Virus record (IMG/VR): IMGVR_UViG_3300031972_002122
Location: 64,571 to 128,570 of that record
Source: a virus
Direction: 5' to 3' (one strand)
Length of the DNA: 64,000 bases
This document shows, one piece after another, positions 3,419 through 64,000 of the stretch (position 1 is the stretch's first letter; every line of letters begins with the position of its first letter). The notes under the pieces were generated by a model that ran no database searches, had not been told where the DNA came from, and worked only from the letters and a program-made list of their open reading frames with translations. A program made the position numbers and the translations under genes.

Positions 3419-4909
3419 ATGCACAAAGTAAACTTACCTAAGTTAAAGCGAGTCGATCAAGACCGTCCTAAAAAGAAAAAAATCTTATTATTATCTGACG
3501 ATTTACGAATGCATTCAGGGATTGCTACAATGTCCCGAGAATTCGTTATCGGTACCTCTGACACATTTGATTGGGTACAATTAGGTGCCGCGTTGAAACA
3601 CCCCGATCATGGTAAAGCTTTCGACGTTTCTGATGATGTTAATTTTAATAAAGGAATAGATCATTCGTCGGTTAAGATATATGCACATACTGGATATGGG
3701 AGTCCTGATGTTTTGCGAGAACTTGTGGAAACTGAAAAACCAGACGCTATATTACATTTCACTGATCCTAGATTTTGGGGGTGGTTGTATGCGATGGAGC
3801 ATGAGATTCGTACAAAAATGCAAATACCGATCATGTACTACAATATATGGGATGCTCCACCAGCACCATTCTGGAATAAACCATTCTATCAGTCATGCGA
3901 TCTTATAATGAACATAAGTAAGCAAACAAACAATCTAGTTAAGTTAGTTTTAGGTGAGGATGGATATAAGGACATTAGTCAAGGCGATGGTGATGGTGAT
4001 ATTATGGTTTGCCATGTTCCACATGGTATAAACAAAACACAATATTTTAAAATCACGGAGGAGCATGCTGAGTGGGAAGAATATAAAGCCTTAGAGAAGA
4101 AATTTAAGGAGAGTCACGACGTAGATTTCATATTCTTTTGGAATAATAGAAACATTCGCCGTAAGATGATGGGGGACTTGATTCTAGCATATAAACAGTT
4201 CTGTGACTCATTACCACCAGAACAGGCTAAGCGTGTAGCATTATTCATGCATACTCAAATGCGCGATCCGAATGGTACAGATATACCAGAAGTGGTTAGA
4301 GTTGTCTGTCCAGATCATAAAGTTATATTTAACGAAGAGAAGCTTCCAGTCAAAGCATTGAACATGTTTTACAACTTATCTGATGTGACCATTAATATAG
4401 CGTCGAATGAAGGATTTGGATTGTCTTCTGCTGAATCAATTATGACTGAAACTCCTGTATTAAATAATACGACAGGTGGGCTCCAAGATCAGGTTAGATT
4501 CGAGGATGAAAATGGTGATTGGCTTACATTTAATAAGCAATTTACTAGTAACCACGCTGGTACATATACGAAACATGGTGCATGGGCTAAGGTAGTATTC
4601 CCGTCCAATCGATCATTGCAAGGATCGGTTGTAACTCCTTACATATTTGATGATCGATGTAATTTTTCTGACGTAGCTGAGCAGATGGCTGCTTGGTATG
4701 CTACTAGTAAATCTGAGCGAGATGAAGCTGGTAGAGCTGGGCGTGAATGGTTACTATCTGAGGAATCTGGAATGTCGGCGGATGAAATGTCGAACCGTAT
4801 GCGGGATGCGATATTAACGTGTCTGGATGGATGGGTTCGTAGAGAACGATTTGAATTGATTAAAGTAACTGATAAAGAAAAGATAACAGAGGCGGGTATC
4901 GTCTGGTAA
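3419..4909 (+). CDS. glycosyltransferase family 4-like (GT-B)
   Basis: ILLLSDDLRMHSG, NRNIRRK, SNEGFGLSSAES, TTGGLQDQV. Confidence 0.85.
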   Translation: MHKVNLPKLKRVDQDRPKKKKILLLSDDLRMHSGIATMSREFVIGTSDTFDWVQLGAALKHPDHGKAFDVSDDVNFNKGIDHSSVKIYAHTGYGSPDVLRELVETEKPDAILHFTDPRFWGWLYAMEHEIRTKMQIPIMYYNIWDAPPAPFWNKPFYQSCDLIMNISKQTNNLVKLVLGEDGYKDISQGDGDGDIMVCHVPHGINKTQYFKITEEHAEWEEYKALEKKFKESHDVDFIFFWNNRNIRRKMMGDLILAYKQFCDSLPPEQAKRVALFMHTQMRDPNGTDIPEVVRVVCPDHKVIFNEEKLPVKALNMFYNLSDVTINIASNEGFGLSSAESIMTETPVLNNTTGGLQDQVRFEDENGDWLTFNKQFTSNHAGTYTKHGAWAKVVFPSNRSLQGSVVTPYIFDDRCNFSDVAEQMAAWYATSKSERDEAGRAGREWLLSEESGMSADEMSNRMRDAILTCLDGWVRRERFELIKVTDKEKITEAGIVW

Positions 4910-4920
4910 AACGAGTATAA

Positions 4921-6300
4921 ATGAGTAAAAAAACAGTAGTAATAGCAGGAAGTGTAACGACTCGGTCGGGTTATGGTGCGCATGCACGTGATATCGCCAG
5001 AGCACTGATACTGTCCGATAAGTATGATGTTAGTATAATTCCCATTAAGTGGGGAAGCACTCCACAGGATGCGCTTGATCCTGATGATGCGGATGATAAA
5101 TTGATACTTGATAGGTTGGTAGCACCACAGCTACAAGCTCAACCTGATGTATTCATACATCTATCCATTCCGAATGAATTCCAAAGGGCTGGAAAATTTA
5201 ATATAGGCATCACGGCTGGTATAGAAACGACTGCGTGTCGAGCTGAATGGATTGAAGGGTGTAACCGGATGGATTTAGTATTAGCAACGTCTGAACATTC
5301 CAAAAAAGTATTTGAGATAACTAGATTTGAGAAGCGAGACACGGCGACTCAACAAATAGTTGATGTTATCCAATTGACTAGACCAGTTGAAGTGTTATTT
5401 GAGGGGATTAGACCAGAAATATACAATAAGAAGATAAACCCAAAATCTCCTATAGTAAAATCCTTGAATGAAATACCAGAAGATTTTTGTTTTCTATTTG
5501 TAGGTCACTGGCTGCAAGGTGATTTGGGTCAGGATCGGAAAGATGTCGGTGGACTTGTTAGGACATTTCTAGAATCATTCAAGCGAAAGAATAGTCGGAA
5601 TATGCCAGCACTGGTCATGAAAACTAGTCAAGCTGGATTTTCTGTAACTGAGCGTAAAGTTATTTTGGATAAGTTATCCGATTTAAGAGCCATGGTTCGG
5701 GGTGCTGGTTGGGAGCGCGAGCTTCCACCGATATATGTATTGCATGGTAACCTTACTGACTCTGAAATGAACGATCTGTATAATCATAAAAAGATTAAGG
5801 CGATGGTTTCATTCACAAAGGGGGAAGGTTTTGGTAGACCACTTCTAGAATTCACAACAACTGGTAAGCCAGTTATAGCGTCTGGGTGGTCAGGTCAACT
5901 AGACTTCTTACATCCAGATTATAGCGTTGTCCTACGTGGACAACTGACGCCTGTACACGAATCGGCTACTAACGAATGGATTGTTGAAGGTTCGCAATGG
6001 TTTACTGTTAATTATCAATTAGCTAGTCAGGTTATGCTAGACCTTCATAAGCGGTATGATGAATACTTGAAGAAATCTAGAAAGCATAGAAAGTACACCA
6101 TGGATAATTTTTCATTTGACAAGATGATTAATAAATTATGTGATTATATTGATCGTGTTGAGGACTATTCTAAACTTGAACGTAAGATACCGAAGGCACC
6201 ACAGCAGACTCAATTGAATCTTCCAAAGTTATCTAAGACTGGCAACATTCAGAAGCCTGTTACTAAGAAAATTAATTTACCGAAATTAAAAAAGGTATAA
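4921..6300 (+). CDS. glycosyltransferase family 4-like (GT-B)
   Basis: SGYGAHAR, FLFVGHW..DRKD, TKGEGFGRPLLE, SGWSGQLDF. Confidence 0.85.
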   Translation: MSKKTVVIAGSVTTRSGYGAHARDIARALILSDKYDVSIIPIKWGSTPQDALDPDDADDKLILDRLVAPQLQAQPDVFIHLSIPNEFQRAGKFNIGITAGIETTACRAEWIEGCNRMDLVLATSEHSKKVFEITRFEKRDTATQQIVDVIQLTRPVEVLFEGIRPEIYNKKINPKSPIVKSLNEIPEDFCFLFVGHWLQGDLGQDRKDVGGLVRTFLESFKRKNSRNMPALVMKTSQAGFSVTERKVILDKLSDLRAMVRGAGWERELPPIYVLHGNLTDSEMNDLYNHKKIKAMVSFTKGEGFGRPLLEFTTTGKPVIASGWSGQLDFLHPDYSVVLRGQLTPVHESATNEWIVEGSQWFTVNYQLASQVMLDLHKRYDEYLKKSRKHRKYTMDNFSFDKMINKLCDYIDRVEDYSKLERKIPKAPQQTQLNLPKLSKTGNIQKPVTKKINLPKLKKV

Positions 6301-24784: not shown

Positions 24785-25459
24785 ATGTATTATTTTGACA
24801 ATGATTTTTTAAGTCAATATTTCGATCAGGGGATTGCTGTTAAGGTATTCGTAGATGGTGAGTACTATGATATAGCAGGTAAATCTGATATAGAAGATAC
24901 CGAATTTGGGATCGGTTACACCCTTCAGGGTAGACCGCATACATTTGATTATAGATCAATTGAGCAAATAAAGGCTGGAAACAACATTATAACTAAAGAT
25001 CACTTACAGTCTAAGATTGATGGAGTAGAAGAGCCCGAGGGTGGTGAGGAAGACATGGATGGTGAAGATGGTGGTATGGACGATCTCGGCGGTGCTGACG
25101 GTGGGGGTGAACCTGCACCAGAGGGTGGGGGTGAAGAAGCACCTCCTGAAGAGGATGAAGAACCACCGATGGAAGGTTATACGCCTAGGGAATTGATGGG
25201 TATGATGTTGTCAGAAGCTAAAGCTAAAAAAAATACAGCAAAGACTGGGTTCGTGAAAGGTAACATGGTAGAAAACATAGATATGCTATGTGAGTTTCAT
25301 GGATCGCGTGGATCAGTTACAAATGTCGATATGCCAGACAGTGATGATGGTTTGGTTATGGTCGAATATAGAATTTTTAACTATGGGTATAATTTTAAAC
25401 CGGGTCAAAAAGTTATAAAGTCATCAAAACAGTTACAGAAGATCGATAGCGATGAGTGA
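24785..25459 (+). CDS. hypothetical protein with acidic Gly/Pro linker
   Basis: ORF; preceded by TATTTATA motif. Confidence 0.65.
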   Translation: MYYFDNDFLSQYFDQGIAVKVFVDGEYYDIAGKSDIEDTEFGIGYTLQGRPHTFDYRSIEQIKAGNNIITKDHLQSKIDGVEEPEGGEEDMDGEDGGMDDLGGADGGGEPAPEGGGEEAPPEEDEEPPMEGYTPRELMGMMLSEAKAKKNTAKTGFVKGNMVENIDMLCEFHGSRGSVTNVDMPDSDDGLVMVEYRIFNYGYNFKPGQKVIKSSKQLQKIDSDE

Positions 25460-44119: not shown

Positions 44120-45030
44120 TGGGAGGTGGAACGTATAATTTTAATGCTAGAGCTACGTCTTCGGTTACTAAAGGTTTTAACAAGGCAACTGTTGATTCGT
44201 TGGATACTGTATTTAAGCAGCAACGACAACGCCGAGTGCATGATAGTCTCGACCCACGCGGTGTGGTTATTCGGGAATCTAGGGATGGTGAGGATCACCC
44301 AGAATCATTAGCTATTTTAGTTGGTATAGATGTCACAACATCAATGGGTAACGTCCCAGTATTGTTAATACGTGACGGACTACCCAATATGATACAGCGT
44401 ATATTCGAGGAGGGTATCGCTGATCCACAGGTGGCGTTCATTGCCATCGGTGATCATGAGTGTGATAACTATCCATTACAGATCGGGCAGTTCGAATCTT
44501 CGGATCAGCTACTAGATGAGTCGTTGACCAACACCTATATTGAAGGTGGTGGTGGTGGCAATGGTGGTGAGAGTTATTTGTTAGCTTGGTACCACGCCGC
44601 GATGCACACGTCAATTGATTGTTTTGAAAAGCGCGGACAGAAAGGGGTTCTTATAACAATTGGTGATGAGCCATGTCTTAATAAGGTTTCTGGATCAGTA
44701 TTAGCTAGGTTGTATAATTTACAATCTGAACTAGATTATTCAGCAGCAGAATTGTTAAAACTTGCTTCGGAGAAGTATGATGTGTATCATATCAATGTCG
44801 GATCGACGTATTCTGGGTATAGATCGAGTACTAAGAATTATTGGAAAGAGTTGCTTAGTGATCATTTCATCGACGCTAAAAGTCATGAAGATATTCCTAG
44901 AATTGTTGCGGAGCTGACGTCTAAGAGTTATAGTGGTACTCGGCAGAAAGTTGAGACTGACTATGCTGAGGCTTATAATGGATCACCTACAGACGTGGAT
45001 GATATTAAAGAACCTAAAATCACATTATAA
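44119..45030 (+). CDS. vWA (MIDAS) domain protein
   Basis: DVTTSMG (DxTxS), AIGDHECD, EGGGGGNGGESY, ITIGDE. Confidence 0.85.
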   Translation: MGGGTYNFNARATSSVTKGFNKATVDSLDTVFKQQRQRRVHDSLDPRGVVIRESRDGEDHPESLAILVGIDVTTSMGNVPVLLIRDGLPNMIQRIFEEGIADPQVAFIAIGDHECDNYPLQIGQFESSDQLLDESLTNTYIEGGGGGNGGESYLLAWYHAAMHTSIDCFEKRGQKGVLITIGDEPCLNKVSGSVLARLYNLQSELDYSAAELLKLASEKYDVYHINVGSTYSGYRSSTKNYWKELLSDHFIDAKSHEDIPRIVAELTSKSYSGTRQKVETDYAEAYNGSPTDVDDIKEPKITL

Positions 45031-46178
45031 TGAATGTAAGTATTGTCACTGGAGTTGGATATGGCGACGAAGGTAAAGGCGTAACCACTAAGTGGCTATG
45101 CGAGCAATTGTTATCTGGGAATGATGATGTACATGTGATGGTAGTCCGATTTGGTGGTGGAAATCAAGTCGGACATACCACCATGGTTGATGATTTCATT
45201 CACACACATCATCACACTGGTGCTGGAACCTTAGTAAATGTACCAACGTTCTATTCTAGATTCTGTACTGTAGACCCAATTAACACGGTATCTGAGATTG
45301 AGTTCTTAACCCAGAAGGGATTTACACCACGTAATATGTATGACCCACGGTGTATGATTGTAACTCCACTCGATGTGATTTACAATCGAATGCGTCATGC
45401 TAAAACACAACACGGAAGTGTTGGGGTGGGGTTTGGTGCAACTATTGCTAGAAATGAATCACACTACCGACTATATGTTGCCGACATTGCAACTCGGGAG
45501 ATATTCATCCAGAAGTGTAAGGGTATCCAGCAATATTATAACAGCCTAGGTGTGGATTTTGATCTAGATTGTGAGGCGTTTTACATCGACTGTATTAACT
45601 TTTTAGATATTGTGGAGGTAAGCAATCTAAATCTGGAGATAACACGTTACATTGGCTCAAAATCGTCCCATATAGTATTTGAGGGGCATCAAGGGGTATT
45701 GCTAGATCAGGAATATGGTGTATTTCCCCATGTTACTAGATCAAAGACTACATGTAAGAATGCATTCACGATACTTGAAGAAGAGAACCTTAACGGGATA
45801 TGTGAGCATATAAATCAATTCATGGTAACGCGAGCATATCATACACGTCATGGTAATGGGTATTTTGAAGAGGAGGATATTTTACTGACAAATACTGAGT
45901 TTGAAACTAATAAATTCAGTGAGCATCAGGGAGCATTTAAAACAGCTCCACTTAACAAAGCATTATTGACTAGGGGAGTACTTTGTAATCTTATGGATGA
46001 GTCTGACTTAGGAAATATTAAAAGACATCTAGTAGTTACGTGTTGTGATCAAGTAGAGTCTTATGAGGACGTCATTGAATATATTTCTGAAACCACCCAA
46101 CTACTGGACACTCTGTGTATTAATGACCATCCATCAGGAAACATTAGACTATATGCCAAGGAAGAAAAAGATAACTAA
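45030..46178 (+). CDS. purA: adenylosuccinate synthetase-like protein (divergent PurA family)
   Basis: GYGDEGKG, RFGGGNQVGHT, HGSVGVG, FEGHQGVLLDQEYGVFPHVTRS, TRHGNG. Confidence 0.85.
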   Translation: MNVSIVTGVGYGDEGKGVTTKWLCEQLLSGNDDVHVMVVRFGGGNQVGHTTMVDDFIHTHHHTGAGTLVNVPTFYSRFCTVDPINTVSEIEFLTQKGFTPRNMYDPRCMIVTPLDVIYNRMRHAKTQHGSVGVGFGATIARNESHYRLYVADIATREIFIQKCKGIQQYYNSLGVDFDLDCEAFYIDCINFLDIVEVSNLNLEITRYIGSKSSHIVFEGHQGVLLDQEYGVFPHVTRSKTTCKNAFTILEEENLNGICEHINQFMVTRAYHTRHGNGYFEEEDILLTNTEFETNKFSEHQGAFKTAPLNKALLTRGVLCNLMDESDLGNIKRHLVVTCCDQVESYEDVIEYISETTQLLDTLCINDHPSGNIRLYAKEEKDN

Positions 46179-51398: not shown

Positions 51399-52577
51399 AT
51401 GAAACAAGTAATAAGTAGTCAGAAGAAGCCAATTAAGATGTGGCTAGATAATCTGGAGCATGGAGCGATCCAGCAAGCTAAGAACTTGGCGAACTTGCCA
51501 TTCTTATTTAAGCATGTTGCGATTATGCCAGACTCACATCAGGGTTATGGTATGCCGATCGGTGGTGTACTAGCTACTGAAGGTGTGGTTATACCGAATG
51601 CTGTCGGTGTTGACATTGGATGTGGGATGTGTAGTGTTAAGACTAGCATCAAAACGGAAGAGATTGATAAAATTGACTTCTCAAAGTTAATGAACTTGAT
51701 CCGTAAGAAGGTTCCAGTGGGATTTAACCATCACCAGCGAAATCAGAATTCCAAGTGGATGCCTGATGGGATGGATGATGTACCAAAGACTGGTAACATT
51801 CGGAAGGAGTTGAGTAGTGCGCTGAAGCAAGTAGGCACACTCGGTGGTGGTAATCACTTTATAGAGATACAAGCTGGTGATGATGGCTATGTGTGGATAA
51901 TGATTCACTCAGGGTCACGTAACTTAGGTTATAAGACAGCTAGACACCATAACACGTTGGCTAAAGAGATCAATAAGAAATATTGGTCTGAGGTTCCACC
52001 ATCGTGGGATTTAGCATTCTTACTGATCGACTCGCAGGAGGGACAGGATTATATAAGTGAGCTTAATTATGCGACGAAGTTTGCGCTAGCAAACCGTGCA
52101 CATATGATGGAAGCTGTTAAAGAATGTTTAATTGATGTAGCGGGATGGGGTGTTACGTTTGATCCGATGATCAACAAGCCACATAACTTTGCGGAGATGG
52201 AACATCACTTTGGTAAGAATGTTATGGTACACCGTAAGGGTGCTTGTCGGGCTAGGAATGGTGAAGTGGGTATGATACCCGGCTCTCAAGGAACGCACTC
52301 GTATATCGTGAAGGGTAAGGGTGAGGAAAACTCATTCCAGTCTTGCTCACACGGTGCTGGTAGAGTGATGGGACGTAAAGCCGCTCAGAGAAGTTTAGAT
52401 TTTGACACTGAGGTTAAGCGGTTGAATGACATGGGAGTGTACCACACATTAGAAACGGTAAAGCAATTAGATGAAGCTGCAGGGGCATATAAAGATATTG
52501 ACCTCGTGATGGAAAACCAATCTGATCTAGTAGAAATATTAGTGAAGCTGAAGCCATTAGCAGTAGTAAAAGCATAA
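51399..52577 (+). CDS. rtcB: RNA ligase RtcB
   Basis: MPDSHQGYGMPIGG, VGVDIGCGM, GTLGGGNHFIE, HSGSR, HN, HRKGA, SCSHGAGR, DEAAGAYKDI. Confidence 0.96.
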   Translation: MKQVISSQKKPIKMWLDNLEHGAIQQAKNLANLPFLFKHVAIMPDSHQGYGMPIGGVLATEGVVIPNAVGVDIGCGMCSVKTSIKTEEIDKIDFSKLMNLIRKKVPVGFNHHQRNQNSKWMPDGMDDVPKTGNIRKELSSALKQVGTLGGGNHFIEIQAGDDGYVWIMIHSGSRNLGYKTARHHNTLAKEINKKYWSEVPPSWDLAFLLIDSQEGQDYISELNYATKFALANRAHMMEAVKECLIDVAGWGVTFDPMINKPHNFAEMEHHFGKNVMVHRKGACRARNGEVGMIPGSQGTHSYIVKGKGEENSFQSCSHGAGRVMGRKAAQRSLDFDTEVKRLNDMGVYHTLETVKQLDEAAGAYKDIDLVMENQSDLVEILVKLKPLAVVKA

Positions 52578-54093: not shown

Positions 54094-54345
54094 ATGAATA
54101 AGAAAGATAAAGAAACGTATAAAAAGATTGTGGAAGGTGAATGGAAAGACATGCCTGAATTCCACCAAGACGATTTAACGTCTAAGCGAAAGATTGTTGT
54201 TCATTTTAGGAACGATGATGATGTAAAAAAGTTTGAGGAGTTGATGGATCAAAAGATAACGCCAAAGCAAAAATCGCTATGGTATCCATACATGCCTCCT
54301 AGACGGTATGCTCATAAACGATATATAGACGAAGATGAATCCTAG
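54094..54345 (+). CDS. small protein of the type found next to GREB1/TAGT-like glycosyltransferases
   Basis: WKDMPEF..IVVHFRN..F..LMDQKITPKQKSLWYP. Confidence 0.65.
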   Translation: MNKKDKETYKKIVEGEWKDMPEFHQDDLTSKRKIVVHFRNDDDVKKFEELMDQKITPKQKSLWYPYMPPRRYAHKRYIDEDES

Positions 54346-55201
54346 ATATCCTATATACATACCATCTAAGGGTCGATACGAGACGCGTAAGACCGTTAAA
54401 GCACTCGATGCTATATCGGTGCCATATCGGATCGTTGTAGAGCCACAGGAGTACGATAAATACGCTGCAGTCATTGACGAGCATAATATATTAGTACTCC
54501 CAGAGGATAACGTGAAGTTAATCGGTGCTCGGAATTGGATAAAGCAACATTCAATATCGGAGGGGTATGAGCGACATTGGCAACTTGATGATAATATAGA
54601 ACAGTTCAATAGGCTTAATAGAAATTACCAAGTCAAGGTATCGTCTGGGACTATATTTAGGTGTGCTGAAGATTTCACGGATAGGTATGACAACATAGCT
54701 TATTCAGGATTTCAATACGATCACTTCGCAAAGGCGAAGACTAAGATGTTACCATTTATATTGAATACACGGGTGTATTCGTGTACGTTAGTCAATAACC
54801 TTGCACCATACGCTTGGCGATCGATTTATAATGATGATACTGATGTGTGTCTTCAAGCTTTGAAAGATGGGTGGTGTACTGTGTTGTTCAACGCATTCCT
54901 CCAGTGTAAAGCTACGACAATGACAGTTAAGGGTGGAAACACTGAAGAGTTATATTTGATCGAGGATGGTCGTAAGAAGATGGCACAGGCGTTAGTAGAC
55001 TTACATCCAGACGTTGCTAAGGTAGCGTGGAGATTTAATCGATGGCAACATGTAGTGGACTATAGCTCATTCAAGTTGAATAATCGATTGCAGAAGAAAG
55101 ATGGTATAACGATCCCAGAAGGGATCAATAATTATGGTATGAAATTAGTCACCGTAGATTCTGATGAATACACACGGTGGGAAGCAAATAAGCTCCTTTA
55201 G
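54335..55201 (+). CDS. GREB1-like / TET-associated glycosyltransferase (putative DNA base modification)
   Basis: YPIYIPSKGR, GARNWI, WQLDDNI, YNDDTD.CLQAL..GWCT, KGGNT. Confidence 0.82.
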   Translation: MNPRYPIYIPSKGRYETRKTVKALDAISVPYRIVVEPQEYDKYAAVIDEHNILVLPEDNVKLIGARNWIKQHSISEGYERHWQLDDNIEQFNRLNRNYQVKVSSGTIFRCAEDFTDRYDNIAYSGFQYDHFAKAKTKMLPFILNTRVYSCTLVNNLAPYAWRSIYNDDTDVCLQALKDGWCTVLFNAFLQCKATTMTVKGGNTEELYLIEDGRKKMAQALVDLHPDVAKVAWRFNRWQHVVDYSSFKLNNRLQKKDGITIPEGINNYGMKLVTVDSDEYTRWEANKLL

Positions 55202-58012: not shown

Positions 58013-59510
58013 ATGTGGAATACGATGGAAGTAACCAACTATAAAACTAGAACACTAATCAATATACTATTTGGATTTCTCGGAACATTATTCATTATAT
58101 GTTTACTTGCTATGGACTGTAGTGGATCACATTCAGATGTTGATGAGACCGTGGAGACCAGTGTGCTGTCTATACATGTGCTGGAAAACTTTACAGTTCG
58201 TGGGTACGATAGTAAGTTTAGAACTCAAGTTTCTAGGATAACGTCTCAGGGACATGAATATTTAATCACGTCGAGTGGTGGTATCGTTCACATGGAGCAT
58301 TGCTTACATCGAGACATAAACTTTGGGACTGATGGGGATTGATGATGTACGCTCAACGTTAACGATCCAGTTTCGTAGTAGGAGAAAATGTTTAAAATTT
58401 CTACGCCAAATTGACAGTGGGGTTCTAAAAGAATATATAGCAGACAGTTTTGATAATGTTATTTGGTTGAAATTTCCAGATCAATATACCCGAGACGTCA
58501 TGCTAGATACCATGAAGCGGACAGTACCTAAGTATAAGATTAAAATAAATAACGGACAAGAACAAATATTGATATGAGTAGTAATAATGGTAATGACTTG
58601 GTTAAGGAAGTTAAGGTGATGTTAATTAGATTGCGAGCATTTTATAAGAAAACCATCGAGGTGGAAACTTTGGCGAGGACGTTAGGACATGAAGACTTTG
58701 ACATAGAAAGTTTCGTTAAGGAAAATCCAGAGCTTAGTGCTATATATGATGAAATAGACGTTTTAACCAATACGTTAGCTGATATCGAACATAGCTAGTG
58801 ACAAACTGTTGAATATGGTACATAACTTACTAGAAATTAATAACCTCATCAACATTCACCATGTCGTCGAAATTGATGTGAAACGTCAGGAAGAGCATAG
58901 GGATATTAAGTGGGTTGAACATGTAGGTAATCTATTTACACCTGTTAAGCGTGGTTGGTATTATTCTATACTTGGGGAAGGTAGTTGGATTGATGAAGAG
59001 GAAGTTTCCAATATATCAAAACACGTTTATCTAGATCATGATCTTAGGAAGGCTTTTTACTACCCACATATCGAGTTTGGTATGGTTGATCGCTCGCGAT
59101 GTTATCGATGGTTCGAAACTGTAGATGAGCTAAACGCGTACCTGAAGGATATGGAATTAAGTATGTTCGTTTAGTAAAATATAATTATGTCGGAAGAAAT
59201 AAATAAAGAATATTGGGAAGCTCGTGACAAGTATATGAACGATCTAGTAGAGTTAGCAGAGTATGCAAATCATACTGGGGATGAGTTGGGGGAGTATAGT
59301 GCTAAATTGGTAAACCTAGCTCGGTCTAGTGCCATAGGGAAAACGTTTGAGGATGCTCTAAAGCTTGAAGTGTATGCTGTGCTTAAGATGTTCAGAAGCG
59401 AATTTATATGGGGAGAGCAAGTCATGACTGTGACTACCGAAATTGATGGTGAGGTGACTGTCAAAAAAAGCACTAATAAAGTATTAAAACATCAATCAGA
59501 ATGCAAATAA
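58013..59510 (+). other. run of five small hypothetical ORFs (58013, 58323, 58574, 58809, 59187)
   Basis: ORF track; contiguous on the same strand. Confidence 0.55.
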
Positions 59511-59818
59511 CTGAAATTCCAGACTGGTGGGTAATTGTACAGATACCATATGGGTATAAAGTATTTGCATCGTGGAATGCGAGTGGGTTGAGTGGTGATC
59601 GATGGCGACTGAACAGTGGCATTAAACACGTAACGAGTGATCCAGAGTTTTATTATTTTCATGGATATTCAGGATCAGTTTATCAATGTAACCGACTTGG
59701 GTATGGCGTATCATCTGTCTGGACGGGATCAGTTCTAGATGGAATGGTTGATGCTAGTGGTGGTATGATGGAAGTTCTCGGTGACGATCGTGATTGGACT
59801 GAATTAAACGTAAGATAA
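59501..59818 (+). CDS. conserved phage hypothetical protein
   Basis: PDWWV..YKVFASW...GDRWRLNSGI...FHGYSGSVYQC. Confidence 0.75.
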   Translation: MQITEIPDWWVIVQIPYGYKVFASWNASGLSGDRWRLNSGIKHVTSDPEFYYFHGYSGSVYQCNRLGYGVSSVWTGSVLDGMVDASGGMMEVLGDDRDWTELNVR

Positions 59819-59843
59819 TTTTTTAACATATAAACATAATATT

Positions 59844-60368
59844 ATGGAAGATACCAATAACTCAACTTTCAAAAAATACCTCCAAATGGCAGATGCGATG
59901 TACGTGACTAAGAAAGTAGATACATTGCCTAAGATTCGTAAAGATTTTCGTGTTGATATGGCATTTGTTAATGTCTTAAGAGATTTTAACTACCTAATAG
60001 CTACGGAAGATGATCCAAAAATGTATCGATGGAATCCTGAGTTAGTACCCAACGAACTTTTAATTACATTAGCTAGGGATGAAGTTAGAAAAATTCGTAA
60101 AGCAAGTGTAGATCGAGTTGCCGCGCGTAAAGCCAAGAAGCAAGAGTTAGTCGAACTTGAACGTAAATCTGACGCGAATAAGTCTAGTGCCACTGAAGTT
60201 AATTCTGCTAGTGTTACGTTGGGTGGTGACGTTGCTGATGATGTTGATGATACTAGTGATCAAGTAACTTCTCCCGAAATTACTGTAGATCAGGCACTCG
60301 CTACCTTGAAAGCTAATGGCGGGTATGTTGTATACAAAACTGTTACAACACAAACTCAAGTTGTCTAA
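59844..60368 (+). CDS. hypothetical protein
   Basis: ORF track. Confidence 0.65.
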   Translation: MEDTNNSTFKKYLQMADAMYVTKKVDTLPKIRKDFRVDMAFVNVLRDFNYLIATEDDPKMYRWNPELVPNELLITLARDEVRKIRKASVDRVAARKAKKQELVELERKSDANKSSATEVNSASVTLGGDVADDVDDTSDQVTSPEITVDQALATLKANGGYVVYKTVTTQTQVV

Positions 60369-60370
60369 GA

Positions 60371-60676
60371 ATGGCGATTGATTACACGACATATCAGAGG
60401 GTACATAAACCAAAACTCGGTATTAAATACCACGTGTCATGGGCACCGATGGGAGTCGTCGGTGTCTGTGTCAAAATTCTGGATGGTAAGGTATGGTTGA
60501 TGAGACCAAAGCAAAAAACGCTATTTAAAAATCCTATACCATTTGGTGATCTCGTACATTTAAGGAACACGTCTATAAAGATTTTAAAGCTTGGCTACGA
60601 AGTCGTCGAGCGTAGTTCGATACCCGATAAAAAGTGGCTCAAGTATGTACTGAGATATAACGATGTTAAAATCTAA
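60371..60676 (+). CDS. hypothetical protein
   Basis: ORF track. Confidence 0.55.
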   Translation: MAIDYTTYQRVHKPKLGIKYHVSWAPMGVVGVCVKILDGKVWLMRPKQKTLFKNPIPFGDLVHLRNTSIKILKLGYEVVERSSIPDKKWLKYVLRYNDVKI

Positions 60677-60712
60677 TAATCGACTCCTGAAGGGGTATAA
60701 AAATATAATACG

Positions 60713-61120
60713 ATGCATGTAAGACACGATGATCGAAACGACGACGTAACTCAGTTGGATATAGCACTTCGCATGGTTGGTTTGAATGTGGACTATACGA
60801 CGTCTGATTTAATATACATGATGCTCAAGGCGTTAGCTGAACGTGGGGATGATTTCTCACTACAGGATGCTGCAGCGATACAAACAGAACACGCCAATAA
60901 ATGGGAACGGTATGCGGATGTGTTAGCAACTGAAGAGAATAGTTCGGCGGAATCAGAAATAAATCCAGACGAAGCTCCAGACCTTAACCTATCGGACATT
61001 GAAGAGATCGCAATTAAATCTGCACTAGCTAAATATAATGGTCACCGTGGCAAGGCTGCTAAATCGTTGGGAATGTCTGAGCGGACGTTACATCGTCGAT
61101 TGAACAAACTGAATATGTAG
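60713..61120 (+). CDS. protein with C-terminal Fis-type HTH
   Basis: LSDIEEIAIKSALAKYNGHRGKAAKSLGMSERTLHRRL. Confidence 0.85.
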   Translation: MHVRHDDRNDDVTQLDIALRMVGLNVDYTTSDLIYMMLKALAERGDDFSLQDAAAIQTEHANKWERYADVLATEENSSAESEINPDEAPDLNLSDIEEIAIKSALAKYNGHRGKAAKSLGMSERTLHRRLNKLNM

Positions 61121-61412
61121 TCAACTTGGTAACATAATTTTTCAAAAACTAAATATAGATACGATGGATGGTGGTACTGATGTACTTGAAGAGAGTCTGA
61201 ATGACGTACTAGTAGATACGGTGAATCTTCAGGCGGAACTGATAACTATGCATGCTACGAAGTTAACGACGGATGGGTTACATACGTACTGTGAGATGCT
61301 TAGTAAATTCATAGAAGAAAATTGCGAATAATGATCAGTTGTAATATTGATATAATAACATTTGCCCTTGTTGTCTGGATGACTTACAGGGGCATTACTT
61401 ATAAAATAGACA

Positions 61413-64000
61413 ATGGTAGTAAATAGTCGAGGTAGTGGAGATGGGTATGGATATGGTAGTGGAATTGGAGCTGGGAATGGGAGTGGTGATGGGTATGGTA
61501 GTGGAATTGGAGCTGGAAATGGGTGTGGGCGTGGCGATGTTCGTAGTATATGGTGTGACGAGGTAGATGGTTGTGGTAGTGGTCATTGGTATGAGGTTGG
61601 ACGTGGAAGTGGAGATGGTTGGGGTTATGGAGGTGGCTTTGGTGGTGGGTGTGGATACGGGCGTGGAAATGGCTCTGGGTATAAATATGGAAAGGGAAAG
61701 GGCTAAAATCAGTAAATTATGAGAGTATATAGTTACGGAGATGGTGATGGGCATGGACTTATAACTGCACGTGGCGATGGGGGTGGATGTGGAAGTGGAG
61801 TTGGAACTGTATATGGGTATGGATATGGATATGGATGTGGGGATGGACGTGGAAATGAATATGGTCGTGGAAATGGATATGAACTTGGAAATGGTCGTGG
61901 AAAAGGTCGTAGTCATGGAGATGGCGATGGGTATGGATATGGTTGTGGGGGTGGAGAGGGCTAAAATCAAAAAATATGAGAGTATATAGTTACGGTAGCA
62001 GTGATGGGCATGGATTTGAAAGTGGAGAGGGCTGGGGAGCTGGGGATGGAGACGGACGTGGAAATACATACGGTGGTGGGGGTTCGCTTGGTGGGCGTGG
62101 AGATGGGTGTGGGCGTGGAAATGAATATGGGAGTGGTGATGGGAGTGGTGATGGGCGTGGAAATCGCGGCGGAACTGGAAATGGAAGTGGCGGATGGTGA
62201 TGGTCGTGGATATGAAAATGGTTAAATCAGAAAATTATGAGAGTAGATAGTTACGGGATTGGAACTGGTCGTGGAAATAGTCGTGGTCATGGGGATGGTC
62301 GTGGATATGGAACTGGACGTGGGAATGGTTATGGACACGGACGTGGGTGTGGTCGTAGTCATGGTCGTGGATATGGAAGTGGACATGGAACTGGAAATGG
62401 CTCGGGTATTGGAACTGGAAATGGTCGTGGAACTGGGAATGGCTCGGGTACTGGAACTGGAACTGGAAAGGGTTAAATCAGAAAATTATGAGAGTAGATA
62501 GTCAAGGTGGTAGTGTTCGTGGGGATGGTCATGGATATGGAACTGGAAGTGGGAATGGTTATGGACGTGGATGTGGGGAAGGTTATGGTTTTTCGTATGG
62601 AGATGGAAGTGGTCGTGGGGATGGTTATGGTTTTAATGGAAAAGGGAGTGGACGTGGTCATGGCGATGGATGTGGAGATGGAAATGGAAATGGTTAAATC
62701 AAAAAATTATGAGAATAGATAGTCAAGGTGGTGGTGATGGTCGTTGGTATGGTCATGGGCATGATCGAGGACGTGGGCAAGGACGTGGGAGTGGGTGTGG
62801 GGCTAGATTTGGAACTGGAGGTGGGCGTGGAATAGATCATGGACATGGGATTGGGTATGTTTATGGGGATGGTCGTGGATATGGAACTGGACGTGGGAAT
62901 GGTTATGGACACGGACGTGGGTGTGGGTATGGTCGTGGGGATGGGAGTGGTCGTGGAGATCGTGATGGAACTGGAAAGGGCTAAAATTAAAAATTATGAG
63001 AGTAAATAGTTACGGAGCTGGAGATGGGTATGTGTATAGAGACGGGAGTGGCGATGGCAGTGGAACGTCGAGTGGTTGTAAATATGGAATTGGAAGTGGA
63101 TATGGTGATGGAGATGGACGTGGAGATGGGTATGGAAGGGGGTTTGGGCGTGGAGCTGGAACTGTTCATGGGTATGGACATGGCGATGGCAGTGGGTGTG
63201 GAATTGGGTATGGACGTGGAAGTTGGTATGGAACTGGACTTGGTTAAATCAAAAAATTATGAGAGTATATAGCAGTGGATATGAAGATGGGTATGGACGT
63301 GGAGATGGTTGGGGAAGTGGAAGTGGAAGTGGAGCTGTCTGGGGAAGTGGAAATGGAAGTGGGCATGGAACTGGAAATCGCGATAGATATGAACTTAAAC
63401 GTGGGTATGGACGTGGATATGGACGTGGAGATGGAGATGGGTGTGGAAGTGGAGCTGGATATGGACATGGCGATGGCGATGGAGCTGGAACTGGAAAGGG
63501 CTAAAATCAGAAAATTATGAGAGTATATAGTTACGGGGTTGGACATGGAAGTGGACGTGGAGATGGAAGTGGATATGGATATGGACGTGGAAATGGAAGT
63601 GGATATGGACATGGCGATGGCGATGGAGCTGGACGTGGAGATGGATATGGAACTGGACGTGGGAATGGTTATGGACACGGACGTGGGTGTGGGTATGGTC
63701 GTGGGGATGGGAGTGGTCGTGGAGATCGTGATGGAACTGGAAAGGGCTAAATCAGCAATTATGAGAGTGTATAGTTATGGAGATGGGAATGGATATGGAA
63801 GTGGAAATGGATATGGAAGTGGACGTGGATATGGATATGGAAGTGGACGTGGATATGGAATTGGATATGGACGCGGAGATGGATATGGAAGTAGACATGG
63901 AAATGGACGTGGACATGGAAGTGGATCGGGAAGTGGACGTGGATAATCAAAATCAGCAATTATGAGAGTGTATAGTTATGGATCGGGAAGTGGATATGGA
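61413..64000 (+). repeat. tandem array of at least 11 Gly-X repeat mini-ORFs (starts 61413, 61719, 61976, 62237, 62488, 62709, 62996, 63259, 63517, 63761, 63962), truncated by the window end
   Basis: conserved junction GG(C/T)TAAA(A)TCA(G/A)AAAATTATGAGAGTA(T/G)ATAGT; peptides MRV(Y/D/N)S..(GX)n, often ending GKG. Confidence 0.9.

What the first reader, a model, noticed from the sequence alone, without database searches (positions are those of the whole stretch)
61395..64000. Tandem array of hypervariable Gly-X mini-genes with a conserved junction
Seen: at least 11 units of ~200-305 bp, each an ORF (mostly MRV(Y/D/N)S(Y/Q)G followed by near-strict Gly-X alternation, X = D/Y/S/R/N/H/T/C, often ending GKG). 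Units are joined by a ~30-nt conserved stop-spacer-start block. They differ in sequence but share mosaic blocks (62877-62984 is identical to 63643-63750), which suggests recombinational shuffling. A TACTTATA motif precedes unit 1. Inference: a diversifying family, for example polyglycine-II or low-complexity peptides, decoys for host sensors, or modified-peptide precursors; alternatively a G-rich RNA/DNA structural element or a Gly-tRNA sink.
Basis: partly seen in the sequence, partly recalled or inferred. Interest (0 to 1): 0.72.

Follow-up and report, generated by a model that had tools for sequence, protein, structure and literature searches.

The report
Phage array of glycine-repeat mini-genes
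An uncultured marine phage carries at least eleven back-to-back small genes for floppy proteins with glycine at every second position, an unusually large, arginine-rich version of a widespread phage gene type that nobody has studied.

Summary
Window 61413-64000 contains 10 complete small ORFs and 1 cut ORF on the + strand. Each has a conserved head (M-R-V/I-x-S-x-G) followed by Gly-X alternation, and the units are joined by a conserved TAA / 10-15 nt A-rich spacer / ATG block. A 110-nt block occurs twice.

The array lies at the very end of a 128.6-kb viral contig. Independent contigs of the same and a second sample reproduce the units and show that more units exist.

The DNA is a degenerate hexamer (NNT-GGN). 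Its codon choice is far from the phage norm and keeps the G-rich mRNA unfolded.

The proteins have no family match and are predicted disordered.

This scan has already found the same kind of gene many times on other DNA, usually directly behind a small DUF6948 gene. I confirmed that pairing in 4 of 4 loci examined. This contig has no DUF6948 gene, and its repeats are unusually rich in Arg, His and Cys, with pI from 4.7 to 11.2.

I read it as a real, recombining gene family of disordered "sticker-spacer" proteins. The function is inferred, not shown. No RT or radical SAM gene, Rfam match or consistent predicted G-quadruplex supports the alternatives.

The parts
61348..61356 (+). TGATATAAT, a perfect match to the extended -10 promoter consensus (the consensus is recalled). 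It lies just after the stop of the upstream 55-aa ORF. Candidate promoter only.
   Evidence: Read from the sequence. A second sigma-70-like match, ATGACT-17-TAAAAT, lies at 61379-61407. Promoter-like matches in the region are not above the shuffle expectation (9 found, 11.6 expected).
61363..61394 (+). Stable hairpin between the promoter-like site and the first ATG. It could be a 5'-leader element or the end of the upstream transcript. No U-tract follows it.
   Evidence: MFE -19.2 kcal/mol, z = -2.84, 0 of 200 shuffles fold as well.
61413..61706 (+). Unit 1. 97 aa, head MVVNSRG, with a non-repeat insert in the middle, tail GKGKG, pI 6.5. First gene of the array; it has no junction block upstream.
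61719..61964 (+). Unit 2. 81 aa, head MRVYSYG, pI 5.5.
61976..62200 (+). Unit 3. 74 aa, pI 4.7. A 1-nt frameshift gives a TGA stop. The old tail and its TAA remain out of frame in the 36-nt spacer that follows.
   Evidence: The same sequence is in an independent contig that reaches 62249 (record 1).
62237..62476 (+). Unit 4. 79 aa, head MRVDSYG, pI 11.2, the most basic unit.
62488..62697 (+). Unit 5. 69 aa, head MRVDSQG, pI 6.0.
62709..62984 (+). Unit 6. 91 aa, head MRIDSQG, pI 9.9. Its last 110 nt, stop included, are identical to the end of unit 9.
   Evidence: The Logan piece covering 62897-62985 has depth 136, against 41-73 for the neighbouring pieces, as expected for a two-copy block.
62996..63247 (+). 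Unit 7. 83 aa, head MRVNSYG, pI 6.7.
63259..63504 (+). Unit 8. 81 aa, head MRVYSSG, pI 6.7.
63517..63750 (+). Unit 9. 77 aa, head MRVYSYG, pI 9.2, alternation 0.97.
   Evidence: A contig from a second sample is identical over 63520-63780 and crosses the junction between units 9 and 10 (record 10).
63761..63946 (+). Unit 10. 61 aa, pI 9.9.
   Evidence: An independent contig carries a 12-nt (two-hexamer) insertion behind 63908.
63962..64000 (+). Unit 11. Only 13 codons are present (MRVYSYGSGSGYG); the contig end cuts it off. The array continues beyond this point.
   Evidence: One search shows a contig that runs on from 64000 through 14 new letters into a unit tail like that at 63480.
61704..61739 (+). 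Example of the conserved junction, which recurs 10 times: GG(A/C)AAGGG(C/T)-TAA, then a 10-15 nt A-rich spacer with no Shine-Dalgarno motif, then ATGAGAGTA(T/G/A)ATAGT(T/C)A(C/A)GG.
   Evidence: The A-rich, SD-poor context matches the phage's other genes: only 45 of 140 have an SD-like 4-mer.

Best explanation
What it is. The array is a real family of at least 11 paralogous + strand genes, probably transcribed together, and more units lie beyond the contig end. Each gene makes a 61-97 aa protein. The protein has a 7-residue conserved head and then glycine at every second residue. The other positions are mostly Arg, Tyr, Asp and Ser, with some Asn, His, Thr and Cys.

What the proteins look like. 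They are predicted to be disordered. They have no signal peptide and no hydrophobic stretch longer than 3 residues.

Where it belongs. It is an amplified, Arg-rich version, with no partner gene detected, of a widespread and unstudied class of phage (Gly-X)n genes. Those genes normally sit as 1-3 copies directly behind a small DUF6948 gene.

How it evolves (inferred). At DNA level each gene is a degenerate hexamer microsatellite, NNT-GGN. Slippage in 6-nt steps and unequal recombination or gene conversion between units shuffle a limited alphabet of hexamers. Changes at the first two bases of an NNT codon can never create a stop codon, so the family diversifies without breaking frames.

How it is expressed (inferred). 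The C-poor codon choice keeps a 41%-G mRNA unfolded. Each A-rich junction could then serve a ribosome that does not rely on a Shine-Dalgarno site, by re-initiation or fresh initiation.

What it does (inferred, not shown). The proteins act as multivalent 'sticker-spacer' polymers, with Tyr and Arg as stickers, Gly as spacers and Asp tuning the charge. They bind RNA, ribosomes or each other (acidic paralogs with basic ones) in the infected cell, as part of host takeover.
For: Coding strand and frame:
- 59 of 63 ORFs of 120 aa or more, and 26 of 26 tRNA genes, are on the + strand.
- All 10 complete units run from a conserved ATG head to a stop that lies inside the conserved junction.
- All 9 non-frameshifted units have an odd number of residues, so lengths differ only in 6-nt steps and the Gly register holds from head to tail.
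- The third base of Gly codons varies freely (entropy 1.61 bits) while GG is fixed.
- The other (Gly-X)n genes I examined use quite different nucleotides: (NNC-GGC)n in Ralstonia phage NK-7, Pectobacterium phage Taid and Iodobacter phage PhiPLPE. Of the levels I compared, only the peptide pattern is shared.

Start context: the phage's genes are A-rich upstream and poor in Shine-Dalgarno motifs (45 of 140 have an SD-like 4-mer). The junctions look the same.

mRNA folding:
- Native units fold more weakly than synonymous recodings drawn from the phage's own codon usage in 10 of 10 units (mean z +2.1; 15 control genes, mean z -0.6).
- Swapping T for C at the X codons roughly doubles the folding energy.

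Recombination and slippage: exact shared blocks of 110, 64, 51 and 34 nt; a two-copy depth for the 110-nt block; and a 12-nt insertion variant.

Disorder: AF2 with the paralog alignment gives pLDDT 30.9 and no secondary structure. The Atlas model has pLDDT 0.38.

Class membership:
- A profile of the units finds 163 and 186 proteins that carry (Gly-X)n tracts.
- A DUF6948 gene is directly followed by Gly-X ORFs in L002 and in NK-7, PhiPLPE and Taid, 4 of 4 loci examined.

Sticker content: 48 [G/S]Y[G/S] and 46 GRG motifs in 793 residues.
Against: - There are no expression data. No listed run holding this DNA is on record as RNA.
- A (GGN-NNT)n repeat is open in this frame by construction, so open frames alone prove nothing.
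- T at the third base of the X codon is 91% conserved (entropy 0.57 bits), far more than the amino-acid-changing positions. That is a nucleotide-level constraint which protein function does not explain.
- My explanation for that constraint, avoiding C to keep the mRNA unfolded, cannot be general. The NK-7, Taid and PhiPLPE genes have 38-42% C.
- The defining partner of the class, DUF6948, is absent from the contig. No upstream small protein resembles it.
- Kinship with the class rests on composition and pattern, not on alignable homology. Searching with a single unit found nothing.
- The proposed function has no direct support at all.
Confidence: 0.58

Rival explanations
1. It is a non-coding hexanucleotide satellite, or a G-rich RNA that acts as RNA. 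One example would be a sponge for a protein that binds GGA or UGG motifs. On this reading the ORFs are a by-product of the repeat.
For: TGGA occurs 170 times, against 17.9 per equal length elsewhere in the window. T at hexamer position 3 is 91% conserved although that site is synonymous. The + strand is 41% G and 7% C. Any (GGN-NNT)n repeat is automatically open in this frame.
Against: - Every junction carries a conserved ATG head and a stop codon.
- The Gly register is kept from head to tail in 9 of 9 intact units.
- The third base of Gly codons varies.
- The other genes of this class that I examined use quite different nucleotides: (NNC-GGC)n in three cultured phages, and no frozen third positions in L002.
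- Rfam gives 0 matches at E<=1.
- The RNA is less structured than its synonymous recodings.
- Predicted G-quadruplexes appear in only 4 of 10 units.
Confidence: 0.08
2. The units are precursors of modified peptides (RiPPs), or glycine-rich antimicrobial or bacteriocin-like peptides released at lysis.
For: The layout resembles tandem precursor-gene arrays: a fixed short N-terminus and a hypervariable body. The Gly/Tyr/His/Arg-rich make-up resembles glycine-rich antimicrobial peptides of animals (recalled, not tested).
Against: No radical SAM gene in the 128.6 kb. No Pfam or PHROG match for the five units or for the four nearest upstream proteins that points to a modifying enzyme or exporter. 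The conserved head is only 7 residues long. There is no double-glycine leader, signal peptide or hydrophobic run longer than 3 residues. The contig is only about 73% complete, so a modifying enzyme could lie in the missing part.
Confidence: 0.06
3. The units are folded structural proteins, either polyglycine-II / PPII helical bundles or silk-like beta-sheets, for example a virion or matrix component.
For: Gly-rich PPII bundles exist in phage adhesins, Obg and the snow-flea antifreeze protein (PMC8409303, passages read). A period-2 Gly-X pattern is the silk-fibroin pattern (recalled). NK-7's gene is annotated 'fibroin heavy chain-like protein'.
Against: AF2 gives pLDDT 30.9 with no secondary structure, and the Atlas model pLDDT 0.38. 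PPII bundles need a period of 3 or poly-Gly runs (recalled); here a bulky Tyr or Arg sits at every second residue. The array lies among small genes of unknown function after the tRNA region, and I saw no virion gene next to it.
Confidence: 0.05
4. The array is a codon-specific sink for host tRNA-Gly(UCC). Heavy translation of GGA-rich mRNA would starve host genes, while the phage reads its own GGT/GGC codons with its own tRNA-Gly(GCC).
For: GGA is 54% of Gly codons in the array and 23% in 128 other ORFs, which prefer GGT (49%). The contig's only tRNA-Gly has anticodon GCC.
Against: The cultured-phage genes of this class that I examined use GGC only, so the trait is not shared. The contig is incomplete and may encode other tRNAs. 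There is no expression evidence. A sink would not need conserved heads, tails or varied X residues.
Confidence: 0.04
5. The diversity comes from a diversity-generating retroelement (DGR), through adenine-directed mutagenesis of AAY codons into NNY.
For: X codons are NNT in 91% of hexamers, the same stop-free codon set that DGR variable regions use (the DGR feature is recalled).
Against: No reverse transcriptase gene in the contig. The units differ by hexamer indels and whole shared blocks, which DGRs do not produce. I did not see a mostly-AAT template copy among the units, but I did not search for one specifically.
Confidence: 0.02
6. The array is an assembly artefact or chimera of a short-read repeat, or the real genes lie on the - strand.
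For: The array sits at a contig end. An independent assembly breaks it into pieces of 89-530 nt, with alternative joints. The - strand has open frames of 224 and 144 aa.
Against: - 17 of 19 laid pieces are at least 99% identical to the window, at depths of 41-136 against 88 for the flank.
- A second sample holds an identical 261-nt piece across the junction of units 9 and 10.
- The - strand frames have no conserved start and run through junctions.
- In one search the only other - strand ORFs of 120 aa or more are two that overlap longer + strand ORFs.
Confidence: 0.04

Closest known systems
Phage gene pair of DUF6948 (PF22253) followed by a (Gly-X)n ORF. Examples: Ralstonia phage NK-7, XCO36016.1 followed by XCO36015.1 ('fibroin heavy chain-like protein'); Pectobacterium phage Taid, CDS0033 followed by CDS0032; Iodobacter phage PhiPLPE, gp84 followed by an unannotated ORF; IMG/VR locus L002. 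Found only as database entries; no paper turned up.
   Same: Small ORF with Gly at every second residue. Encoded by a hexanucleotide repeat in which third codon positions are largely frozen while the first two bases of the X codon vary. A short non-repeat head. Tandem duplication also occurs there (3 copies in L002)..
   Different: - No DUF6948 gene here, either next to the array or anywhere in the 128.6 kb.
- At least 11 copies here instead of 1-3.
- X is 17% Arg here against 1% in the 120 profile hits, with more His, Cys and Thr. pI runs from 4.7 to 11.2, whereas X in those hits is mostly Tyr, Asp and Ser.
- Codons are NNT-GGA here instead of NNC-GGC.
C9ORF72 dipeptide-repeat proteins (poly-GR, poly-GA, poly-GP), made from a G4C2 hexanucleotide repeat.
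   Same: A hexanucleotide repeat read as Gly-X dipeptide repeats. The profile of the units weakly matches the GR20 chain of PDB 7too (E 0.0043; a low-complexity match, not homology). GR20 and PR20 inhibit peptidyl transfer on E. coli 70S ribosomes in vitro (PMC9120013, passages read). That gives a concrete way in which Arg-rich Gly-X chains could act on a bacterial host.
   Different: The C9ORF72 products are homopolymeric and pathological. The phage units are ATG-initiated, heteropolymeric (R, Y, D, S and others) and held in a conserved gene family. Only 1 RGG and 46 GRG motifs occur, never as long pure GR runs.
FUS/EWS/TAF15-type low-complexity and RGG domains, and the RG tails of Sm proteins
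   Same: The make-up: Gly spacers with Tyr and Arg. 48 [G/S]Y[G/S] and 46 GRG motifs in 793 residues. Predicted disorder. RGG regions are encoded by G-rich mRNA that they may bind (PMC11789052, abstract read).
   Different: No attached RNA-binding domain. The period is strictly 2. The proteins stand alone at 61-97 aa. Phase separation and RNA binding are untested.
High-glycine-tyrosine keratin-associated proteins of mammals, and the nlp/cnc Gly/Tyr-rich peptide gene clusters of C. elegans (both recalled; PMC8409303 mentions a high Gly-Tyr KAP model).
   Same: Tandem arrays of small, fast-diverging genes for Gly/Tyr(/Cys)-rich proteins of 60-100 aa.
   Different: Those are eukaryotic, and secreted or part of a matrix. 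They are unrelated in sequence and do not have a strict Gly-X period.

Membership tests
Phage (Gly-X)n repeat gene class (usually paired with DUF6948) | Small ORF with Gly at every second residue over most of its length. | tested here: met
   Gly is 40-45% of residues. Alternation is 0.76-0.97 in 10 of 10 units. The profile of the units retrieves (Gly-X)n proteins.
Phage (Gly-X)n repeat gene class (usually paired with DUF6948) | Sits directly behind, overlaps or is fused to a DUF6948 (PF22253) small-protein gene. | tested here: not met
   PF22253 gives 0 matches at E<=10 in the 128.6-kb contig. An HMM built from 5 DUF6948 sequences, run against 934 six-frame ORFs, gives a best E of 2.1. hhalign against the two nearest small upstream proteins gives probabilities of 0.24 and 0.12 (on the program's 0-100 scale). 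The contig is about 73% complete and ends inside the array, so a partner downstream cannot be excluded.
Phage (Gly-X)n repeat gene class (usually paired with DUF6948) | X limited mainly to Tyr, Ser, Asp and Asn (an acidic protein). | tested here: not met
   X in the array: R 17, Y 17, D 15, S 15, N 9, C 5, H 5, T 5 percent. X in the 120 hits: Y 35, D 26, S 20, N 8, R 1 percent. Unit pI runs from 4.7 to 11.2.
Phage (Gly-X)n repeat gene class (usually paired with DUF6948) | Hexanucleotide-repeat DNA with frozen synonymous positions and variable first and second bases of the X codon. | tested here: met
   Position 3 is T in 91% of hexamers (entropy 0.57 bits), against 1.97 and 1.60 bits at positions 1 and 2. 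In NK-7, Taid and PhiPLPE both third positions are 100% C; L002 is not frozen.
Diversity-generating retroelement target | A reverse transcriptase and a template repeat nearby. | tested here: not met
   PF00078 gives 0 matches at E<=1 in the contig. I did not search specifically for a template repeat.
RiPP precursor array | A leader peptide and a cognate modifying enzyme in the locus. | tested here: not met
   No radical SAM gene. The nearest upstream genes are a Fis-type HTH protein and proteins of no known family. The head is only 7 residues. Other enzyme classes were not searched, and the downstream region is missing.
Polyglycine-II / PPII helical bundle proteins | Gly-X-X period or poly-Gly runs, and a confidently predicted packed bundle. 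| tested here: not met
   The period is 2. AF2 gives pLDDT 30.9 and no secondary structure.
RGG / FUS-like low-complexity domains (likeness in how it works, not kinship) | Repeated RGG or RG motifs and [G/S]Y[G/S] motifs in a disordered chain; RNA binding or demixing. | tested here: inconclusive
   The motifs are present: 46 GRG, 1 RGG and 48 [G/S]Y[G/S] in 793 aa, and the chain is predicted disordered. Binding and demixing cannot be tested with these tools.
Known RNA families (Rfam 15) | A match to a covariance model. | tested here: not met
   0 matches at E<=1 over 61100-64000, both strands.

The most novel reading that the evidence does not exclude
The array generates diversity without a reverse transcriptase. 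It is a stop-proof hexamer-microsatellite gene family that slippage and gene conversion keep reshuffling, giving the phage a charge-graded library of Gly-X dipeptide-repeat proteins. The basic, Arg/Tyr-rich members would act like poly-GR, occupying host ribosomes or RNA or condensing with them. The acidic members would temper or partner them. That would make this a natural, selected phage counterpart of the C9ORF72 dipeptide-repeat proteins. It would also work without the DUF6948 partner gene that the rest of the class has.
Probability: 0.12. Interest if true: 0.85.

Novelty: new variant of a known kind. Interest (0 to 1): 0.52.

Why it matters
I found no paper on phage genes that encode strict Gly-X repeats, although they turn up in cultured and uncultured phages of unrelated hosts (Ralstonia, Pectobacterium, Iodobacter and marine samples here). 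This scan has now met the class repeatedly.

This locus is informative for three reasons:
- It is one of the larger amplifications seen.
- No copy of the usual partner gene is detected, so if that holds in the complete genome the repeat protein can work without DUF6948.
- Its paralogs span acidic to strongly basic, with Arg and Tyr together, which is the make-up known to drive RNA binding and demixing in eukaryotic low-complexity domains.

If these proteins do condense with or bind RNA or ribosomes, they would be a simple, natural model of sticker-spacer polymers in bacteria. They would also be a new class of phage host-takeover factor.

The locus also shows how a gene family can evolve quickly and safely. 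Hexamer-step slippage keeps the frame, and NNT codons cannot mutate to stops at their variable positions.

Tried and rejected
Searches for close relatives that found nothing useful:
- Megablast of 59000-64000 against 50,697 phage records: no match.
- tblastn of unit 9 against the same records: no match.
- phmmer-type search with unit 9: 3598 candidates, none at E<=0.001.
- Junction pattern in IMG/VR: 0 hits.
- Junction pattern in metagenome contigs: 3 hits, none with a Gly-rich ORF.
- Junction pattern in species genomes: 1 hit, in Gilliamella, not Gly-X.
- The search for related loci with the HTH gene and with the 174-aa gene: no relatives.
- The glucosyltransferase gene gave 80 loci. 0 of 80 have a Gly-X ORF, and 0 of 9 other neighbouring proteins are shared. 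There is therefore no syntenic relative to compare frames with.
- P0233, one of only 2 of 244 fetched proteins with a similar head, has no IMG/VR locus.

Partner gene:
- The 101-aa upstream protein has no homologues.
- Its Atlas hits are all below 0.9.
- Its AF2 model has pLDDT 44.9, too poor for a fold search, so I ran none.

Motifs and RNA ideas rejected:
- TACTTATA is at chance level.
- AT-rich 11-mers from the upstream region recur at about the number I estimated roughly for chance.
- The E. coli Chi octamer occurs 0 times in the array.
- G-quadruplexes are predicted in only 4 of 10 units.

Expression: no RNA holder is listed for this DNA.

Complex prediction was not used. I claim no specific binding pair, and a disordered chain was unlikely to give a verdict.

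Supplementary files of papers were not consulted.


Full report
**Where it lies.** The window is the second half of a 128,570-base viral contig that is linear by record and about 73% complete. The finding sits at the very end of that contig. The contig is a tRNA-rich phage from seawater runs. 59 of 63 ORFs of 120 aa or more, and all 26 tRNA genes, are on the + strand. A six-frame scan of the whole contig found long Gly-rich frames only in the array; the one other flagged stretch is a single 30-residue window at about 25043-25132 of the window.

**The observation.**
- resolves ten complete ORFs and one cut ORF between 61413 and 64000, of 61-97 aa.
- Nine complete units and the cut one begin with ATG-AGA-GTA/ATA/GTG-xxx-AGT/AGC-xxx-GG, read as M-R-V/I-x-S-x-G. 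Unit 1 begins with the related MVVNSRG.
- Each unit ends in a stop that is part of a conserved junction: TAA in 9 of 10, then 10-15 nt of A-rich spacer, then the next ATG.
- Unit 3 has a one-base frameshift, a TGA stop and a 36-nt spacer. That spacer still contains the old tail and its TAA out of frame.
- Five of ten units end in GKG.
Further exact blocks of 64, 51 and 34 nt link units 4/6, 4/9 and 8/9.
- TACTTATA is not above chance: 6 found, 4.7 expected.

**Is it an assembly artefact?**
- I laid the contigs of three public runs on 60000-64000. In the main run, 17 of 19 laid pieces are at least 99% identical to the window.
- A 123.9-kb contig runs into the array as far as 62249. After that the independent assembly breaks into pieces of 89-530 nt, at depths of 41-136 against 88 for the flank.
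- The piece over the 110-nt block has depth 136, as expected for two copies.
- A second sample holds an identical 261-nt piece that crosses the junction of units 9 and 10.
- There are also alternative joints: a contig that continues from 64000 through 14 new letters into a unit tail, and another that joins a unit head to the middle of unit 10 through 14 new letters.
- One contig has a 12-nt insertion, exactly two hexamers.
- My reading: the units are real, the array is longer than the contig shows, and the exact order and number of units are uncertain.

**Coding or not?** A (GGN-NNT)n repeat is open in this frame by construction, so I looked for other signs.
1. Every junction carries the conserved start and the stop.
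2. All nine non-frameshifted units have an odd number of residues. Lengths therefore differ only in steps of two residues (6 nt), and the Gly register holds from head to tail.
3. In 273 X-Gly hexamers the GG is fixed while the Gly third base varies (A 58, G 19, T 15, C 8 percent).
4. The phage's genes have A-rich upstream regions poor in Shine-Dalgarno motifs (45 of 140 with an SD-like 4-mer), and the junctions look the same.
5. Genes of this kind in three cultured phages are built from quite different nucleotides, (NNC-GGC)n. Only the peptide pattern is shared.
6. Rfam finds nothing, and predicted G-quadruplexes appear in only 4 of 10 units.

I conclude that the + strand Gly-X frame is coding. 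There are no expression data.

**Codon anatomy.**
- Non-Gly codons end in T in 351 of 456 cases (77%), against 36% in 128 other ORFs.
- AGT is 86% of Ser codons (26% elsewhere). CGT is 74% of Arg codons (22%). GGA is 54% of Gly codons (23%; the genome prefers GGT).
- C is only 7.3% of the + strand.
- Within hexamers the third base of the X codon is T in 91% (0.57 bits), while its first two bases carry 1.97 and 1.60 bits. This is the reverse of an ordinary gene.
- Native units fold more weakly than synonymous recodings drawn from the phage's own usage in 10 of 10 units (mean z +2.1; 15 control genes, mean z -0.6).
- A T-to-C swap at the X codons roughly doubles the folding energy, and GGC triples it.
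- So in this array the odd codon choice keeps a 41%-G mRNA unfolded.
- That cannot be the general rule, because the NK-7, Taid and PhiPLPE genes have 38-42% C with both third positions fixed at C. Why the synonymous position is frozen across the class remains unexplained.

**How it diversifies (inferred).** Three observations point to slippage and unequal recombination or gene conversion that reshuffle a limited alphabet of 53 distinct hexamers: the 6-nt length steps, the 12-nt variant and the exact shared blocks. NNT codons cannot become stop codons through changes at their two variable positions. No reverse transcriptase gene is present, so a DGR is unlikely.

**The proteins.**
- No Pfam or PHROG family matches above threshold. 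There is only a sub-threshold hit to a low-complexity part of TrAA12.
- AF2 with the ten paralogs gives pLDDT 30.9 and no secondary structure. The Atlas model has pLDDT 0.38.
- No hydrophobic run is longer than 3 residues.
- X is R 17, Y 17, D 15, S 15, N 9, C 5, H 5, T 5 percent. Unit pI ranges from 4.7 to 11.2.
- The 793 residues contain 48 [G/S]Y[G/S] and 46 GRG motifs.

**The wider class.**
- A profile of the ten units finds 163 proteins at E<=0.01, among the 8000 best word-sharing candidates. It finds 186 at E<=0.001 in 1.84 billion representatives, of which 3 are at 1e-10 or better.
- The sequences I fetched carry (Gly-X)n tracts attached to varied small domains. DUF7666 occurs in 12 of the 120 listed hits and DUF6948 in 1.
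- In those 120 hits X is Y 35, D 26, S 20, N 8 and R 1 percent.
- Notes of this scan say that such genes usually follow a small DUF6948 gene, which those notes call Sm-like, and that arrays of 4, 16 and 18 copies were seen in other phages.
- I tested the pairing myself. In IMG/VR locus L002 a DUF6948 gene (E 1.7e-31) is followed by three Gly-X ORFs.
- 16 cultured-phage records hold a DUF6948 match. I opened three, and all three have a Gly-X ORF directly behind it. It is annotated 'fibroin heavy chain-like protein' in NK-7, 'hypothetical protein' in Taid and not annotated in PhiPLPE. The other 13 records were not opened.
- A further locus, L090, has three Gly-X ORFs with a shared 22-residue head. 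Two of them lie behind a small ORF that resembles DUF6948 only weakly (hhalign E 0.023, probability 2).

**The partner test here fails.**
- PF22253 gives no match at E<=10 in the contig.
- An HMM built from five DUF6948 sequences gives a best E of 2.1 over 934 six-frame ORFs.
- The two nearest small upstream proteins do not resemble DUF6948.
- The 101-aa upstream protein has no homologues and only a poor model.
- Because the contig ends inside the array, a partner downstream remains possible.

**Function.** Nothing here shows it. I commit to the reading that these are multivalent disordered polymers that act through many weak contacts, with Tyr and Arg as stickers and Gly as spacers. They would bind RNA, ribosomes or each other during host takeover. 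I give this specific function about one chance in four.

The likeness to known systems is by make-up only:
- FUS-type low-complexity and RGG domains (recalled).
- The coding link between RGG motifs and G-rich mRNA (PMC11789052, abstract).
- The C9ORF72 Gly-Arg repeats, which inhibit peptidyl transfer on E. coli ribosomes in vitro (PMC9120013, passages). The GR20 chain of PDB 7too is among the few weak PDB matches of the unit profile (E 0.0043).

The alternatives are set out under the rival explanations. They are: a non-coding satellite or RNA sponge, peptide precursors, a folded PPII or silk-like protein, a tRNA sink, a DGR target, and an artefact. Each has at least one test against it.

**Novelty.** I found no paper on these genes. 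'DUF6948' gave 0 papers, 'fibroin heavy chain-like' with 'phage' gave 0, and four broader searches returned nothing on the subject in the listings I read. The class is therefore undescribed in what I could search, but it is already well known to this scan. This locus is a new variant of it: many copies, no detected partner, Arg/His/Cys-rich, and graded in charge.

**Limits.**
- There is no expression evidence.
- There is no complete genome.
- There is no syntenic relative.
- Kinship with the class rests on pattern rather than on alignment.
- Supplementary files were not consulted.

Noticed in passing
window 61976-62236: Unit 3 carries a 1-nt frameshift. It ends early at TGA, and its former last 10 codons and TAA stay readable out of frame in the 36-nt spacer. 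The same sequence is in an independent contig, so this is not an error peculiar to this assembly.
   Followed up: partly
window 61363-61394: A stable hairpin lies just upstream of the first unit (-19.2 kcal/mol, z -2.84, 0 of 200 shuffles as stable). A perfect TGnTATAAT-type motif precedes it at 61348-61356. Its role is unknown; it could be a leader element or a transcript end.
   Followed up: partly
L086 1790-2203 (Ralstonia phage NK-7), L088 1760-2017 (Pectobacterium phage Taid), L087 about 1190-1420 (Iodobacter phage PhiPLPE): The Gly-X genes of these three cultured phages are pure (NNC-GGC)n microsatellites. Both third codon positions are 100% C, although the Taid and PhiPLPE loci are only 45-47% G+C overall. 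Why synonymous positions are frozen in this gene class is unexplained. The PhiPLPE ORF is not annotated in the record.
   Followed up: partly
L090 7419-8243 and 10408-10683 (IMG/VR contig): Another phage has three Gly-X genes that share a 22-residue head (..IFKLTRRLLGLTDGRL..). Two of them lie behind a small ORF that is only weakly DUF6948-like. A DUF2201 metallopeptidase/VWA gene lies between the copies.
   Followed up: partly
window 45030-46178, 54335-55201, 3419-6300: There is a PurZ-like adenylosuccinate-synthetase homologue (phrog_1211, E 1.6e-43), and there are several glycosyltransferases, one matching a beta-glucosyl-HMC-alpha-glucosyltransferase family. The phage probably modifies its DNA bases.
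   Followed up: no
window 51399-52577: An RtcB tRNA-splicing-ligase homologue (E 7e-119) lies inside the tRNA gene region.
   Followed up: no
whole contig (141 + strand ORFs): Gene starts have A-rich upstream regions, and only 45 of 140 carry any SD-like 4-mer. This suggests a host that makes little use of Shine-Dalgarno sites. That could mean a Bacteroidota-type host, but this is my inference and the host was not identified.
   Followed up: no
window 60713-61120: A 135-aa protein with a C-terminal Fis-type HTH (HTH_8, E 5e-11) lies two genes upstream of the array. It might regulate the array.
   Followed up: no
proteins P0233 and P0239 (from the representative search): Only 2 of the 244 fetched Gly-X proteins have a head like this array's (MIIKSYG at the start of P0233; MEINSYG inside P0239). 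Distant relatives of this particular head family may exist, but I could not see their genomic context.
   Followed up: partly
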